From the human T2T-CHM13v2.0 reference genome, Homo sapiens, in assembly GCA_009914755.4 (NCBI GenBank), contig CP068257.2:20960001-21024000 (forward strand): a DNA stretch of 64,000 bases, written 5' to 3'. A program made the position numbers and the translations under genes. How positions within the stretch are numbered: the stretch's first letter is position 1; the number at the start of each line of letters is the position of its first letter. Below the pieces are notes generated by a model. The model was not told the DNA's origin. It saw only the letters and a program-made list of their open reading frames with translations, and did no database searches. Shown piece by piece: positions 52,464-58,989 of this stretch.

Positions 52464-55241
52464 TATTTAAGTTACATGTCCTATGAAAATTATAATGCCT
52501 TCTGCAATTAATTGTTAAATATGAAGTAAGAAAATCAACATTAATGTGTTTGATAAATCTTTGTCGCATATGCTTATCAGCTAAGTGTTTATTATACAGG
52601 ACCTCACCTCACACACCTGAGAAAACACATCACACGTCTACCTTCATGAAAACATGAACTTGCTACTCCCACCATTATTAGTGTAGACAGAGAAGTATCA
52701 CAGGTTATGTAGGGCATCCTAACTTATCTGAATCTTGTTTCACAGTGAAATTACCGTTTCTGTTTATATTTAGAAGGGGATATTGGAATGCACTCACCTT
52801 TTTTTTCTCTAAAGTCTCATATAAAAGTGAGTTAAAATAAGTTCCTTTTTGGTATTGTTCATAAGTATTAAAACATTAAATATGTTTATCATCACCTAAA
52901 AAACATAAGATTACAAAGCTGTGGTTTTAGCCAACTTTTTTAACTTTATGTGCCTAGAATGTAATATTTCCGGCAATCTGGCAAGAGTTCACACATCTGC
53001 ACCTCTTCCAGTTTCCCGTGGCAGGTGAGTTTCTCCTTTGTTAAATTGTTTGGCAGGCAGCTGTGAATTTATAAATTTGCAACAGATGTCTCCAATCAGA
53101 ATCATATACATTTTGTAGTCTAAGGCTGAGTCTGGGGAAGCTGAACAGGACAGGGAAGGATGTATAATTTTATTTTATCTAAAAATTTATAAATTTTAGT
53201 TTTTGTGTGAAAGTTGTGCTTTTTACACCTAGGTAAACAATCTGAGTAAAATAAATAAACAGAGGAGTATTCCATAAATGGATTCAACTGAGAAATTAAT
53301 CTCAAAAACTTTGGTTTTAAAATATATATGCTTTCTAAAAAATATTTTTCTTGGTAGAATTAAGAATAATATATGTCCAAAAATCATTTTACATCCTTTC
53401 ATGGAAATAGACCTCTAATATAATATGAGGTCATCACACTGAATAAAATGCTCATTATATCTTTATTCTTACTACAAGTAGGAAAATTCATGAAGCTATA
53501 GATTACTACTGGGGGGAAATGAACAATTGGAGTTATTAGTTAGTTTAATTATATTTTTAAATGGTGCTCCTGTCTAAATTATTATAATAACATTCTACTT
53601 TGATTTAGTGATTCAAACACAAATATCCACATGGAGGTAACTGAGACATAAGCTGAGTCGGGCATGGCCGTTGCTCAAGCATTACCAGTGGTATTATCTT
53701 CACATCACTTATCCCAATACACCCCAATGTTTGTCTTTTATGATTTACATAATATTAGATTGTCTCTCTGCTACCTCTGTCTTGGTCCCCATTAGAACAA
53801 ACATACCTTTCTCTGTACTCAACAGATCCCACTTTCTGTCATCCTGCTTTTTTACACTTAGTCTATATTTTATTACTCAGTCTTTCTCTGCATGGCAATT
53901 CATTCGAATTCATATAAATACCTACCTCACACATACACACTTTTATGTACACACATAAAAATAATAAGCATACACAAAAATTCTCAAGATATTCACATAT
54001 GCACAACTGGAATAATAGAATGCATATTAGTTTTAACAGATAATTAGCTTATGTTTTATTAGGGTTTTGTTTAATTCAGTTTTGCTCCAATCTTCACTCA
54101 TCCAACTCTCAGACATATCCTCCAACACACATACATAAACACGTACACTTACACAGAGTACAAACATAGAAAGAAAACAAAACACCAGATTAACTGATTG
54201 TATTCTACGTTAATTTCTTGTTAATATCACAATTATATTATTGTATATAATGTTGTTTATAATATATAATATTACTGCATAGATATAAATACTTTATCAG
54301 GTATAAGTGGATTTTAGGATTTTTGATTTTCAAAAATAATATTGTATAATATCTATTTCTTCTGTATTTTGCCATTCTCACCTTCAAGACAATAATTACT
54401 TATAGTCTGCTAAATTCCATTCTAAGCACTGTGGACATAACATTGAACAAAAGAGATCCGAAAGAGCTTAAATCAATGAAAAGCTTTCTAAATAGTAAAA
54501 CATTCTTTAGTTATAAATTTCTTTCTAAACTCTTCCTTTTATATTGGAAGGAAAAACATTATTTCTTTATATAGATTTGCTTCCAAGCTATTATATCCAT
54601 TTTTACTTTTGCTTTTCTGATAGTATAATTTTCAGATGTTCACACATCTGTTTGGACACAAAATGAGCAGGTAGGGCCCACTAAATCCTAAAATATACAG
54701 TTATTTCAGCCAGTATTATCCTATCATTAGCATATCAATTGTGGGATAGTGGCAAGGAAAATTCAAATGATGTGGTTTGGCAAGAGTCCCAAAAGATCAG
54801 ATGGTTTGTATTATTTCCTAAACTCTATGTTTTATTATTTTATAACTTTATTTTTGTCTCATTTCCTCAACTTCACTACCACAAAACTTTATCTAAATAA
54901 GGGTTTTATTTTGGTACCTCAACAAATAATATAACCTTTAATATTTAGAATTTAACTTTGGACCCAAATCCTTTCACATATTTACTCCCTTGTATACTTT
55001 GTTATTGCACATTCTAGTATACTATCCCAAGGTCTTCCTGTCAAGGTGCTGTTAAACACACATGAAGAGTACATCAAAAATTCATTGTTTTCTTAGAAAT
55101 CAGAGCTTCTTTTGATAATCTACACATCTTCATTCATACCTTTTAACTATTAGAGGCCACCTCCATTACCTTGAGTAGCAACATAGAAATTCATAAAAGT
55201 GTCCTTCTATTTAAGTGTCCTTCATTCACTTTGTAATTTCT

Positions 55242-55738
55242 TTTTTTAATCTTTTTTTTTATTATACTTTAAGTTTTACGGTAGATGTGCACAACGTGCA
55301 GGTTAGTTACTTATGTATACATGTGCCATGTTGGTGTGCTGCACCCAGTAACTCGTCATTTAACATTAGGAATATCTCCAAATGCTATCCCTCCCCCCTC
55401 CCGCCACCCCACAACAGGCCCCGGTGTGTGATGTTCCCCTTCCTGTGTCCATGTGTTCTCATTGTTCAATTCTCACCTATGAGTGAGAACATGCGGTGTT
55501 TGGTTTTTTGTCCTTGCGATAGTTTGCTGAGAATGATGGTTTCCAGCTTCATCCATGTCCCTACAAAGGACATGAACTCATCATTTTTATGGCTGCGTAG
55601 TATTCCATGGTGTATATGTGCCACATTTTCTTAATCCAGTCTATCACTGTTGGACATTTGGCTTGGTTCCAAGTCTTTGCTATTGTGAATAGTGCCACAA
55701 TAAACATACATGTGCATGGTGTCTTTATAGCAGCATGA
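55242..55738 (-). mobile_element. Young L1PA-type 3' segment (ORF2 C-terminus plus 3' UTR plus poly-A) of a minus-strand twin-primed insertion
   Basis: + strand shows the poly-T (ttttttaatctttttttttattatacttt) then the reverse complement of the L1 3' UTR and ORF2 end (aagttttacggtagatgtgcacaacgtgcaggttagttacttatgtatacatgtgccatgttggtgtgctgcacccagtaactcgtcatttaacattagg…gttcaattctcacctatgagtgagaacatgcggtgtttggttttttgtccttgcgatagtttgctgagaatgatggtttccagcttcatccatgtccctacaaaggacatgaactcatc…). Minus-frame ORF 55561-55767 = …FTIAKTWNQ.KCPT.IDWIKKMWHIYTMEYYAAIK… Very high identity to the L1HS/L1PA consensus as recalled. Confidence 0.9.
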
Positions 55739-56069: not shown

Positions 56070-58989
56070 CACTTTGTAATTTCTAAAGTGAAAGAAGAAA
56101 GTGTAACAGCAACTAGTTTAGAACGAAGAGTGTAGAGACTAATGTAGGGGACATAAAAGGAAATTGAAAAGACAAATGAGGCTTTGCAGGCAAACGAAAA
56201 GTTTCTTGAATCAGAGGTAAAATTTAAGGTTAGCCATCTGAGCCAAAGGAAAGTTATTACCATTTCTTGAATATTTGCCATATGACAAGTCTTGCAAGTA
56301 ATTGTTTATGTGTAAAAGTGTGCCTCATTGCCATTAATATTACCACAAATCATAGGCTTCAGACATGAAGTGTTTTACGGAACAGAACACTGGACTTTGA
56401 AGTTATTCCGAATGCTTTAAATTGTCAAGAATAGTCACTTCATTATAATCTTTGTAAGTTTTATTTAATTACTGATTGGTTACTGGGAGAAACTAATGTG
56501 TTAGTCTTTTATCACCAAACACAGCTGCATGAATTTACTTAGTTGACTTGCCTTGGGAGGATAAATCCCCTGATAAAATGGGGCATATGGGGTGAACATT
56601 TAATTGGGATTGAGGTGATTTAAGGACAGTAGACCCAGGTAAAAATATATTAAAGAATTAGCCATGTTCATACACAAATACAAATGAAAACGTCCTCTTT
56701 GGCTGGCTTTATAGTGAGAGATAGCAACATGACATTTATATTAAAATGTATATTCCTCTTTTTGGAAATTATCATTTATCTGACAGTTAAGAAAACAATT
56801 GATGAAATCTGGGGCAAATAGAGAAACATGAGGAAATATAAACATTTCAAATAAAGGGGATTAAAGAGGATTAAGATACTAATTATACGTTTATGTATAC
56901 AGCATATTTTCATTCATGTTCTCATGTAAAGACAATCACTTTTGACTTTCACAACTCTTTGAGAGAAACATGTTGATGTTTTGTTGTTTTAATTGTTAGC
57001 AACAACAACAAAAGTTGAGATTCATAAAATTTAAAATAAATTATGAAAAGCCAAGAATCAATAAACTGACTCAATTTGGAAAAACTAGGTCCAAGATGAG
57101 TTCAAAATTAATAGGGATTTTTAATTTAAAAGATATTACCTAATGTTTCCTAAGGATATATTTTTCCTCACTAAAGTATCTTTGGAGACATATAAAGAGC
57201 TGACCATTATAATAAAATTAAGTTATAATTCTAATTTTGACCCAACATTTAAGAAAATTCCACTGACAGAAAATCTAGTGTAGTAAATTAATAGACGCAA
57301 TGAGAAACTGGAACATAATTTACCATTAAAAGAGAGGAAAACATACGAAACTCTGGAAGATTGAAAAAAAAACAGGGTGGTGATGCTATATAGTTATCTG
57401 AATGCTTACAACAATCATTCTGTCATGTTAAAAATTGTTTTTTCTTTTTTCCAAAAGGGTTACTTTTCCACAACTCCATTCATAGTTCCTCTTATAATAC
57501 ACTTCACATATAAAATAACAAGTATATAAAGCAAATCTAAGGGATCAATGGGTGTAAATTAGGATTTACATTGTATGAAGCAATTTACAATTAAAACAAT
57601 TCTGCATACAACTATAAAGAATAGAGAAGTTCTGTTTAGTAGAGGAAACACTAACTGTAATTTTATAGAGCACTATTTTTAATAAGATTATCAGAGAAGA
57701 CAGAAAAAAGTTTAGGGAATGTCCCATCTCAACCCATTAGAGACAGTGTGGTGAATTTCTGCTATATATTAGGGAAAAAATTATAAAAATTGATCTGATC
57801 TTCATCTACGGCCCTGAATGTAGTCCAATGATAAAGATTAAAACCACCCACTACAAATATGTCCATAACCACTTGACATGAATTATTGCAGTTAATCATT
57901 TAAAAACCTGTAAGAAAAGTATATTCTCAGCAACACATGAATATCTTGAGCCAAAGATGTTTTAAATAATATAACTAAGGTCTAATAGTAGTTTTCGGAG
58001 CCTGGAAACAAACCACCTAACAAATCAGCTAAAGACAACTGAAAGAAACTTATAATAAACTAAGTTACGTTTATTATTTGACAAGTAAAATACATACAAG
58101 AAAAAATAATATTGAAACTTAAAGGAAAACTGAAGATCAAGTATCCCCAAGAAACGTTAAGCAAGGTAAAGAAAGAAAGAGAGAGAGAGAAAGAGATAAA
58201 AAAAAATTAAGACATATAAAAATTAACAACAAGGAGAATTCCTTGACTTTTAAAATTATTTTTATTTACATAACGATTTATCTTGACTTTTATTTTTAGC
58301 TTTTGGGGTATTTCAGTTTTTTAGAATTATAAATATTGATGCTCATGAACATGTTTGCACACAAATGCTTTTATAGCTCTAATTATTTCCTTACAGTTGA
58401 TTCTCAGAGTTGAAACAACTTGGATAAAAGGTGTAAGCATTTTTAAGGCTCTTTGTAACTGTTTCAAAATGAATATGGTGTATGATAGTGTCTTTTAAAA
58501 AAATGCTAAATAGGTATGTGCTTAGCAATGGAGCTTCAAAATGCAAGAAGCAATAATTGAGAAGGCTCAAAACAGAAGAGATACTTTAATTTTGAAATAT
58601 TTGGATATTTTAATCTCTCAATTTATAGGGCAGACTAATCTCTCAATTTATAGGGCAGACACAGAAAATTAGTAATGTTAGAGAACTACTGGACAACACT
58701 ATCAATACATTGATCTTATTGCCATTTATAGAACACTCTCTCACTCCAACAACAACAGAGTATTACTTTCTAATCACATGCACCATTTTTGTGATGCCAT
58801 ATTCTGGTTCCTAAAACAAAGTCCAATATTAAAAGAATTGAAATCATGCAAAACACATTTTCAGAGTGTAGCACCATTGCACTTAAAAGCAATTAATAGA
58901 AGATACTGGAAAGTTTGCAAATGTTAAGGAGTTGGGTACCATTTTAAGCCTTGTAAATCCCATCTTGAATTCTGGTGGAAACTGAAACT

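What the first reader, a model, noticed from the sequence alone, without database searches (positions are those of the whole stretch)
55227..56084. Young L1PA-type ~0.83 kb twin-primed insertion with a perfect 15 bp TSD (cactttgtaatttct)
cactttgtaatttct occurs at 55227-55241 and again at 56070-56084. Between them lies a poly-T-led, minus-oriented L1 3' end (55242-55738) covering the ORF2 C-terminus and 3' UTR, directly joined to a plus-oriented ORF2 segment (55739-56069). In L1 coordinates the plus-oriented segment ends ~10-15 nt upstream of where the minus-oriented one starts, again the twin-priming pattern. Both pieces are nearly identical to the young L1 consensus, and the ORF2 remnant is uninterrupted over 115 aa, so this is a recent, hominoid-specific insertion. 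It could even be polymorphic or lineage-specific.
Basis: partly seen in the sequence, partly recalled or inferred. Interest (0 to 1): 0.5.

Follow-up and report, generated by a model that had tools for sequence, protein, structure and literature searches.

The report
Old inverted L1 retrotransposon insertion
This is an ordinary 828-bp fragment of a primate LINE-1 retrotransposon whose front part was inserted backwards by the well-known "twin priming" route; it is real and neatly preserved, but it is millions of years old and of a very common kind.

Summary
A perfect direct repeat, really 16 bp (TCACTTTGTAATTTCT, 55226-55241 and 56069-56084), flanks 828 bp made of two L1 pieces. One is an antisense 3' end with a poly-T leader (55242-55740). 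The other is a sense ORF2 piece (55740-56069) with a 115-codon open frame. Rejoined, the two pieces align as one unbroken stretch to full-length L1 copies. In L1Hs coordinates A is 5214-5540 (up to 5545) and B is 5541-~6021 plus tail. A TTCT/AA nick site, 3 nt of microhomology at the 5' junction and 1 nt at the inversion junction complete a textbook twin-priming insertion. "Young, possibly polymorphic" is not supported. The element differs from L1Hs at 5.1% of sites and reads GAG ("L1PA2 or older") at the 3'UTR diagnostic trinucleotide. It has about 2% private substitutions and two frameshifts in ORF2. Two of its 6-8 ancestral CpGs are lost, and the A-tail is only 19 nt and interrupted. My best estimate is L1PA3-L1PA4 grade, roughly 10-18 Myr old and fixed. 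5'-inverted L1s make up 18-31% of L1 insertions, so interest is low.

The parts
55226..55241 (+). 5'-side copy (on the + strand) of the target-site duplication, TCACTTTGTAATTTCT. Its 3' end (...TTTCT-3') is the nicked end that primed first-strand cDNA synthesis on the poly(A) tail.
   Evidence: Exact 16-nt direct repeat. It is followed immediately by poly-T.
55242..55259 (-). L1 poly(A) tail read on the opposite strand: A9-GATT-A6, 19 nt, short and interrupted.
   Evidence: Sequence. Recent L1 insertions have median tails of 34-39 bp (PMC12016303).
55260..55740 (-). Segment B, the non-inverted cDNA primed from the poly(A) tail. It covers L1Hs positions 5541/5542 to ~6021: ORF2 codons ~1185-1275 (now carrying 2 frameshifts), the stop codon and the whole 3'UTR.
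   Evidence: Aligns to positions 1829-2309 of full-length L1 loci, directly continuing segment A. L1Hs coordinates come from published 11-mers. Matches ORF2p 1188-1235. Private insertion of C at reconstruction position 349 (after L1Hs 5561) and deletion of A at L1Hs 5692.
55739..55741 (.). Inversion junction, GCAGCATGAT|T|GAACAG. The 5' end of segment B is joined to the 5' end of segment A. There are no filler bases, and one T (55740) is assignable to either segment.
   Evidence: Direct reading against L1 copies.
55740..56066 (+). Segment A, the inverted cDNA primed internally on the L1 RNA by the second nicked strand. It covers L1Hs 5214-5540, ORF2 codons 1076-1184, with the reading frame open.
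   Evidence: 106/109 identity to PDB ORF2p chains 8sxt/8uw3. Aligns to 1502-1828 of full-length L1 loci. ORF listed.
56067..56071 (+). Internal priming point, TATCA, compared with L1Hs 5541-5545 AATCA. These 5 nt repeat the first 5 nt of segment B, a 0-5 nt duplication in L1 coordinates. TCA (56069-56071) is also the start of the 16-nt TSD, giving 3 nt of microhomology between the target DNA end and the L1 RNA.
   Evidence: BLAST to L085: A = 4548-4879, B = 4875-5347, a 5-nt overlap. Alignment to the in-window old L1. L1Hs 11-mers CTATAAATCAT and AAATCATGCTG.
56069..56084 (+). 3'-side copy of the target-site duplication, TCACTTTGTAATTTCT.
56085..56088 (+). AAAG, the bases just downstream of the first-strand nick. 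The reconstructed empty site reads ...ATTTCT/AAAG..., that is TTCT/AA, a one-base variant of the L1 endonuclease consensus TTTT/AA.
   Evidence: Sequence. Consensus as stated in PMC2912911 and PMC7026601.

Best explanation
This is a single, ancient, endonuclease-dependent LINE-1 retrotransposition event of the 5'-inverted ('twin priming') type, now a dead, fixed fossil. Inferred sequence of events follows. L1 ORF2p nicked the window's + strand at ATTTCT/AAAG, and the T-rich 3' end annealed to the poly(A) tail of an L1PA-lineage RNA. Reverse transcription copied the RNA back to about L1Hs position 5541, giving segment B. The other strand was cut 15-16 nt away. Its 3' end (...GTGA-3') annealed by about 3 nt to UCA at L1Hs 5543-5545 on the same RNA and primed a second cDNA, which ran from about 5545 back to 5214, giving segment A. 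The two cDNA ends were then joined at a 1-nt microhomology, and gap repair produced the 16-bp target-site duplication. What is shown directly: the anatomy, the L1 coordinates, the collinearity, the microhomologies, the nick-site sequence, and the divergence figures. What is inferred: the order of the biochemical steps, which comes from the published model, and the age (about 10-18 Myr, L1PA3-L1PA4 grade). The element has no demonstrated present-day function.
For: A perfect 16-bp TSD bounds the composite exactly. Only one poly(A) tail is present, and segment A ends on the TSD without a tail. A+B rejoined align as one uninterrupted stretch to many full-length L1 copies: A to 1502-1828 and B to 1829-2309 in the same loci. 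They also align across an older L1 in the same window at 29063-29689. The two cDNAs overlap by 5 nt. This sits within published behaviour: 46% of 5'-inverted L1s have the cDNA ends within 20 bp, 41% of those overlap, and the overlap quartiles are 4-17 bp (PMC12016303). The 3-nt microhomology at the 5' junction falls in the 2-5 bp class seen in ~70% of 5'-inverted L1s, and the TSD length falls in the 14-16 bp mode (PMC2912911). The nick site TTCT/AA is one base from the consensus. AT skew flips sign at the junction, from -0.29 to +0.24. Both segments show the same subfamily grade, with ladder indices of 0.78 and 0.70. Age evidence: 5.1% divergence from labelled L1Hs, and GAG at L1Hs 5927-5929. 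There are 16 private substitutions plus 2 indels in 808 nt, and no panel copy shares more than 3 of them. The three private changes at A-reference positions (5633, 5692, 5910) fall at positions that PMC5237266 lists as usable, meaning conserved across L1Hs-L1PA5. The eight changes classed as lineage differences at A-reference positions are missing from that list. Two of 6 consensus CpGs are lost. The A-tail is 19 nt and interrupted.
Against: No primate genome assemblies could be searched, so presence or absence in other species and in human populations is untested. The subfamily name could not be pinned with labelled L1PA2-L1PA5 consensus sequences; only the L1Hs reference and the GAG diagnostic are literature-anchored. 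Many reference-panel contigs are collapsed, consensus-like assemblies of contaminating human reads, with 0% private divergence, so haplotype-level inference from them is unreliable. The age depends on the clock used. A pedigree-type rate of 0.64e-9 per site per year, quoted in PMC5237266, would give about 30 Myr instead of about 12 Myr. If the window comes from a non-human hominoid, some 'private' changes could be states of that species' own L1 lineage. The nick site is not one of the three motifs (TTTT/A, TTTT/G, TTTC/A) counted in PMC12016303.
Confidence: 0.93

Rival explanations
1. Two independent L1 insertions landed head-to-head: a 5'-truncated antisense L1 3' end, and next to it a separate sense ORF2 fragment.
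For: Adjacent L1 fragments in opposite orientation are common in L1-rich, AT-rich DNA such as this (GC 28-35%). Segment A shows fewer private changes than B, 0.9% against 2.7%.
Against: Segment A has no 3' end, no poly(A) tail and no TSD of its own, so it cannot be a normal target-primed insertion. Its 3' end coincides to within 5 nt with the 5' end of B in a ~6-kb element, which has a chance of about 0.2%. One perfect TSD encloses both segments. The difference in divergence between A and B is not significant (binomial p=0.06, Fisher p=0.12), and the two have the same subfamily grade.
Confidence: 0.01
2. An ordinary 5'-truncated L1 (L1Hs 5214 to the tail) inserted normally, and its first ~330 bp were later inverted by a DNA rearrangement.
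For: The end product would look almost the same, and zero gap in L1 coordinates is expected for an in-place inversion.
Against: One breakpoint would have to fall exactly at the L1/TSD boundary. The up-to-5-nt duplication (tATCA/AATCA) and the 3-nt target/L1 microhomology are what internal priming predicts, not what a simple inversion predicts. No inverted repeats that could mediate such an inversion flank the segment. 5' inversion during insertion is very frequent, at 18-31% of L1 insertions.
Confidence: 0.03
3. One reading: a very recent L1 insertion (L1Hs/L1PA2 age) that may be species-specific or still polymorphic.
For: The TSD is perfect and the ORF2 remnant of 110 codons is uninterrupted. 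Segment A is 97-98% identical to young L1 copies. The best single panel match is 96.9% overall.
Against: GAG rather than ACA/ACG at the 3'UTR diagnostic. 5.1% divergence from L1Hs. 16 private substitutions and 2 frameshifting indels that an active source could not have carried in ORF2. CpG loss. A short, interrupted A-tail compared with 34-39 bp in recent insertions. At ~2% divergence a perfect 2x16-bp TSD is still expected about half the time, so it says little about age. No non-reference L1PA2 was found in NA12878.
Confidence: 0.03

Closest known systems
5'-inverted L1 insertions formed by twin priming (Ostertag & Kazazian 2001, as summarised in PMC2912911 and PMC12016303)
   Same: One TSD and one poly(A) tail. 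The 5' part of the inserted L1 is inverted relative to the 3' part. The 3' end of the inverted piece lies at the TSD and maps next to the 5' end of the non-inverted piece in L1 coordinates. There are a few nucleotides of overlap, microhomology at both junctions, no filler bases, a TSD of 14-16 bp, and an endonuclease-type nick site.
   Different: Nothing of substance. The overlap (up to 5 nt) is at the short end of the reported range (quartiles 4-17 bp), and the nick site is the TTCT/AA variant rather than TTTT/AA.
L1PA3/L1PA4 subfamilies of the primate L1PA lineage (ages 12.5 and 18.0 Myr, about 10,600 and 11,800 copies in human; PMC5237266 Table S1)
   Same: GAG 3'UTR diagnostic (L1PA2 or older). 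Intermediate position between L1Hs-type and older L1PA-type character states, with 72% L1Hs-type states at 64 variable sites. Private divergence of ~2% lies between that of L1Hs/L1PA2-like single-locus copies (0.7-1.6%) and that of copies at a similar ladder position (2-3.7%).
   Different: Membership in one named subfamily was not established, because no labelled L1PA2-L1PA5 consensus sequences were available. L1PA2 at the young end and L1PA5 at the old end are not rigorously excluded.
L1Hs (Ta/pre-Ta), the active human L1
   Same: Same element and same region (ORF2 C-terminal segment and 3'UTR). ORF2p residues 1076-1184 are 97% identical.
   Different: 5.1% nucleotide divergence, GAG instead of ACA/ACG, about 22 lineage-state differences, and a broken ORF2 in segment B. 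It is not a member.

Membership tests
LINE-1 (L1PA lineage) insertion made by target-primed reverse transcription | Sequence is L1: ORF2 and 3'UTR homologous to primate L1 | tested here: met
   ORF2p 1076-1184 at E=9e-74 and 1188-1235 at E=7e-23 against PDB chains. 96-97% DNA identity to L1 copies over 808 nt.
LINE-1 (L1PA lineage) insertion made by target-primed reverse transcription | 3' poly(A) tail abutting one copy of the target-site duplication | tested here: met
   A9GATTA6 (read on the - strand) lies directly next to the TSD at 55241/55242.
LINE-1 (L1PA lineage) insertion made by target-primed reverse transcription | Target-site duplication of typical length flanking the insert | tested here: met
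   Perfect 16-bp repeat. The typical mode is 14-16 bp.
LINE-1 (L1PA lineage) insertion made by target-primed reverse transcription | L1 endonuclease-type nick site (TTTT/AA and variants) | tested here: met
   The reconstructed empty site reads ATTTCT/AAAG, which is TTCT/AA with 5 of 6 consensus positions. It is a variant, not the canonical motif.
Twin-primed (5'-inverted) L1 insertion | Two L1 segments in opposite orientation inside a single TSD pair, with only the 3' segment carrying the tail | tested here: met
   The AT-skew sign flips at the junction.
Twin-primed (5'-inverted) L1 insertion | The inverted segment lies upstream of, and is collinear with, the non-inverted segment in L1 coordinates, with a small gap or overlap at the internal priming point | tested here: met
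   A = L1Hs 5214-5540 (up to 5545), B = 5541-~6021. Contiguous alignment and a 5-nt overlap.
Twin-primed (5'-inverted) L1 insertion | Microhomology between the target DNA end and L1 at the 5' junction, and at the inversion junction | tested here: met
   TCA (3 nt) at 56069-56071 and T (1 nt) at 55740. Short matches like these also arise by chance, so this is supportive only.
Twin-primed (5'-inverted) L1 insertion | Both segments copied from one RNA molecule in one event | tested here: inconclusive
   Both have the same subfamily grade (0.78 vs 0.70), and the private divergence does not differ significantly (p=0.06-0.12). A direct demonstration is not possible from sequence.
L1Hs (Ta or pre-Ta) | ACA or ACG trinucleotide in the 3'UTR (L1Hs 5927-5929 in the reference used here) | tested here: not met
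   The element reads GAG. The diagnostic is as described in PMC7026601.
L1PA3 or L1PA4 (named subfamily) | Match to the subfamily's diagnostic 3'-end positions in a labelled consensus | not testable with these tools
   No labelled L1PA2-L1PA5 consensus could be obtained. Primer-based labelling of panel copies failed. The assignment rests on divergence and ladder position and on published ages.
Polymorphic or lineage-specific L1 insertion | Empty allele in some individuals or in sister species | not testable with these tools
   No primate assemblies were available. The flank+TSD 27-mer is absent from metagenome contigs, and three boundary-spanning ORFs are not on record.

The most novel reading that the evidence does not exclude
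The evidence does not strictly exclude two less ordinary readings. One is that the insertion is restricted to a single hominoid lineage. The other is that the unusually clean segment A is maintained for some host use. Segment A has an open 115-codon frame, and all three of its private substitutions are silent, whereas segment B has frameshifts and replacement changes. Either reading would make this more than a dead fossil.
Probability: 0.03. Interest if true: 0.3.

Novelty: already known. Interest (0 to 1): 0.06.

Why it matters
It matters little beyond annotation. 5'-inverted L1 copies are among the commonest structural variants of the commonest human transposon, making up about 10% of all L1 copies and 18-31% of recent ones. 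This copy adds a tidy example in which every hallmark can still be read at single-base resolution: the nick site, the TSD, the internal priming microhomology, the few-base cDNA overlap and the junction microhomology. Its practical value is as a phylogenetic presence/absence marker for hominoids, once it is checked against ape assemblies.

Tried and rejected
1. Exact-product look-ups of three ORFs spanning the insertion or its boundaries (115 aa, 70 aa, 139 aa), meant to find the same locus in public assemblies, returned nothing on record.

2. A scan of metagenome contigs for the 27-nt upstream flank plus TSD, which would match either a filled or an empty allele, gave 0 hits.

3. I tried to label full-length panel L1 copies with the published subfamily-selective primers (PMC12432230). 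Only 7 loci reached ORF1 or the 5'UTR and none matched a subfamily-specific pair cleanly, so I abandoned this.

4. I looked for labelled L1PA consensus sequences in the literature. Khan et al. 2006 and Ostertag & Kazazian 2001 are not held. The L1PA4 reconstruction paper has no supplement held as text. A full-text search for the three 3'UTR motif variants found only the L1Hs form, used as a sequencing primer.

5. Pfam found no family for the short ORF2 C-terminal pieces, and Rfam found nothing in the window.

6. My recollection of the L1Hs sequence at the junction (AATGAGTAT) turned out to be wrong when checked against the published 11-mers (AAAGGACTAT). I therefore based no subfamily call on remembered consensus sequences.

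7. Haplotype or tree inference from the panel was rejected, because many contigs are collapsed assemblies with 0% private divergence and conflicting site combinations.

8. I looked for a coding exon in the window as a handle to orthologous primate loci and found none.

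
Full report
**1. What is there**

The 15-mer CACTTTGTAATTTCT occurs exactly twice in the window, at 55227-55241 and 56070-56084. None of 100 dinucleotide-preserving shuffles produced two matches. The base before each copy is also T. An independent repeat finder reports a perfect 16-mer (55226-55241 and 56069-56084) as the longest exact direct repeat at the locus.

Reading left to right on the + strand between the two copies:
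- an interrupted T-run, TTTTTTAATCTTTTTTTTT (55242-55259);
- antisense L1 sequence up to 55739/55740;
- sense L1 ORF2 sequence up to about 56069.

The sense piece carries an open frame of 115 codons (55739-56086). Of these, 110 are L1 codons and the last five read into the repeat. Its translation matches residues 1076-1184 of solved human ORF2p structures at 106/109 (E=9e-74). The antisense piece begins at about residue 1186.

**2.

I rejoined the pieces in L1 sense as A (55740-56066) followed by B (reverse complement of 55260-55740). To build a reference panel I fetched 160 L1 copies that contaminate bacterial genome assemblies and metagenomes.

The rejoined sequence aligns to full-length copies as one uninterrupted stretch, with A at 1502-1828 and B at 1829-2309 in the same loci. 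An older L1 inside the window itself (29063-29689) also runs straight through the join.

For labelled coordinates I stitched an L1Hs reference for positions 5250-6021 from the position-tagged 11-mers in Additional file 2 of PMC5237266. This places A at L1Hs 5214-5540 and B at 5541 to about 6021 plus the tail.

The next five bases after A on the + strand (56067-56071, TATCA) match L1Hs 5541-5545 (AATCA) at 4 of 5 positions. BLAST accordingly extends A so that it overlaps B by 5 nt (L085 coordinates 4548-4879 and 4875-5347). The segments therefore abut or overlap by up to 5 nt.

**3. Mechanism**

The anatomy fits the published twin-priming model point by point.
- The reconstructed empty site reads ...CATTCACTTTGTAATTTCT/AAAGTG.... 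The + strand was nicked at TTCT/AA, a one-base variant of the L1 endonuclease consensus TTTT/AA (PMC2912911; PMC7026601).
- The T-rich 3' end primed on the poly(A) tail and produced segment B.
- The opposite strand, cut 15-16 nt away, ends ...GTGA-3'. Its TGA pairs with UCA at L1Hs 5543-5545, and it primed the second cDNA, segment A, running back to 5214.
- The two cDNA ends are joined at 55739-55741 with no filler and with one shared T.

Published surveys show how ordinary each feature is.
- 5'-inverted copies make up about 10% of all human L1s, 30.9% of human- and chimpanzee-specific insertions, and 18-22% of new germline and somatic insertions.
- TSDs peak at 14-16 bp.
- About 70% of 5'-inverted L1s have 2-5 bp of microhomology at the 5' junction, and only 3.9% have extra nucleotides there.
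- In 46% of cases the two cDNA ends lie within 20 bp of each other, and 41% of those overlap.

The AT skew changes sign at the junction, from -0.29 to +0.24, as expected for two opposed pieces of an A-rich sense strand. Both segments show the same proportion of L1Hs-type states at subfamily-variable sites, 0.78 and 0.70, which fits a single RNA template. The biochemical order of events is inferred from the model. The anatomy itself is shown directly.

**4. Rival explanations**

Two independent insertions are essentially excluded. Segment A has no tail and no TSD of its own. Its 3' end coincides with the 5' end of B to within 5 nt in a 6-kb element, and a single TSD encloses both.

A later inversion of part of a normally inserted, truncated L1 cannot be formally excluded from one sequence. 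It would, however, need a breakpoint exactly at the L1/TSD boundary, and it does not predict the small duplication or the target/L1 microhomology. No inverted repeats that could mediate such an inversion are present.

**5. Age and subfamily**

The main findings are these.
- Against the labelled L1Hs reference there are 37 substitutions and 2 indels in 725 comparable positions, or 5.1%. That breaks down to about 2.8% in A and about 6.6% in B.
- At the classical 3'UTR diagnostic (L1Hs 5927-5929 here) the element reads GAG. PMC7026601 states that ACA marks Ta, ACG marks pre-Ta, and GAG indicates L1PA2 or older. That study found no non-reference L1PA2 insertion in NA12878.
- Site-by-site comparison with 35-105 panel copies splits the differences in two. 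About 22 are lineage states shared with many copies. A further 16 substitutions and two 1-nt indels are each shared by no more than 7 of about 90 copies, and by at most 2 at twelve of the 16 substitution sites. That is 2.0% of 808 nt.
- No panel copy shares more than three of the private states. Those that do are themselves old, and the shared sites are hot spots: the CpG at 5570 and the fast A-to-G site at 5633.

As a labelled cross-check I used the position list in PMC5237266, which contains positions conserved across L1Hs-L1PA5. The three private changes at A-reference positions (5633, 5692, 5910) are on that list. All eight changes I classed as lineage differences at A-reference positions are absent from it.

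Other signs of age:
- Both indels lie inside ORF2, and four of the five private ORF2 substitutions in B change the amino acid. This is post-insertion decay, not inheritance from an active source.
- Two of the six CpGs in the panel consensus are now TG.
- The A-tail is 19 nt with an internal GATT, against medians of 34-39 bp in recent insertions.

The panel gives a rough internal calibration. Genuine single-locus copies with 90% or more L1Hs-type states carry 0.7-1.6% private divergence. Copies at this element's ladder position (0.6-0.75) carry 2-3.7%. This element scores 1.78% on the same metric. Combined with the published ages (L1Hs 3.1, L1PA2 7.6, L1PA3 12.5, L1PA4 18.0, L1PA5 20.4 Myr; PMC5237266 Table S1), this points to L1PA3-L1PA4 grade and roughly 10-18 Myr.

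Caveats:
- I could not obtain labelled L1PA2-L1PA5 consensus sequences, so the subfamily name is an estimate.
- Many panel contigs are collapsed assemblies with 0% private divergence.
- A slower clock would make the element older, not younger.
- A perfect TSD and an open 110-codon remnant are both unsurprising at about 2% divergence.

**6. What could not be done**

No primate assemblies or polymorphism catalogues were available. Attempts to find the locus in public contigs failed. The window has no coding exon that could lead to orthologous loci. Presence or absence across species and populations is therefore untested and is the obvious decisive check.

**7. Verdict**

This is a real, well-preserved but entirely ordinary 5'-inverted L1PA insertion made by twin priming. 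It is almost certainly fixed and more than 7 Myr old. It is an already known kind of feature, and interest is low.

Noticed in passing
window 33877-34210 (-) and 35764-38138 (+): Two pieces of a much older L1 (~67-68% identity to L1PA probes) lie in opposite orientation, with near-adjacent L1 coordinates (probe L085 2142-2489 and 2534-4956). This may be a second, ancient 5'-inverted insertion, now split by ~1.5 kb of other sequence.
   Followed up: no
window 27653-29712 (+): An old L1 ORF2/3' fragment (~74% identity to L1PA probes) runs uninterrupted through the point where segments A and B meet. It served as an in-window collinearity control.
   Followed up: partly
window 55220-55239 and 56078-56097 (in the empty site: CTTCATTCACTTT-GTAATTTCT-AAAGTGAAAGAAG): The pre-insertion target was an imperfect palindrome: 13-nt arms matching at 12/13, around a 9-nt spacer that is part of the TSD. 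This may be chance, and its relevance to nicking is unknown.
   Followed up: no
window 55740-56066 versus 55260-55740: Segment A has 3 private substitutions (0.9%), all silent third-position changes. Segment B has 13 (2.7%) plus 2 frameshifts. The difference is not significant (p=0.06-0.12) and is most likely chance.
   Followed up: partly
loci L001-L080 (e.g. NZ_AMRJ01000061.1 Alcanivorax hongdengensis, several Streptomyces JCM assemblies, Mycobacterium spp.): At least 104 stretches in species-representative bacterial genome assemblies encode primate L1 ORF2, which points to human DNA contamination. Many are 5-6 kb contigs with 0% private divergence, meaning collapsed consensus-like assemblies of many L1 copies rather than real loci.
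   Followed up: partly
window 48224-48900: A long TG/TA-rich microsatellite-like tract gives overlapping spurious ORFs of 128-148 aa on both strands.
   Followed up: no
window 32141-32479 (+): This ORF has a typical Alu-derived translation ([11 protein letters not shown]...GITGVSH). It marks an Alu element and confirms that the window is from a primate.
   Followed up: no
window 10621-10745 and 12841-12930: Short L1 3'-end fragments (75-88% identity to L1PA probes), in opposite orientations.
   Followed up: no
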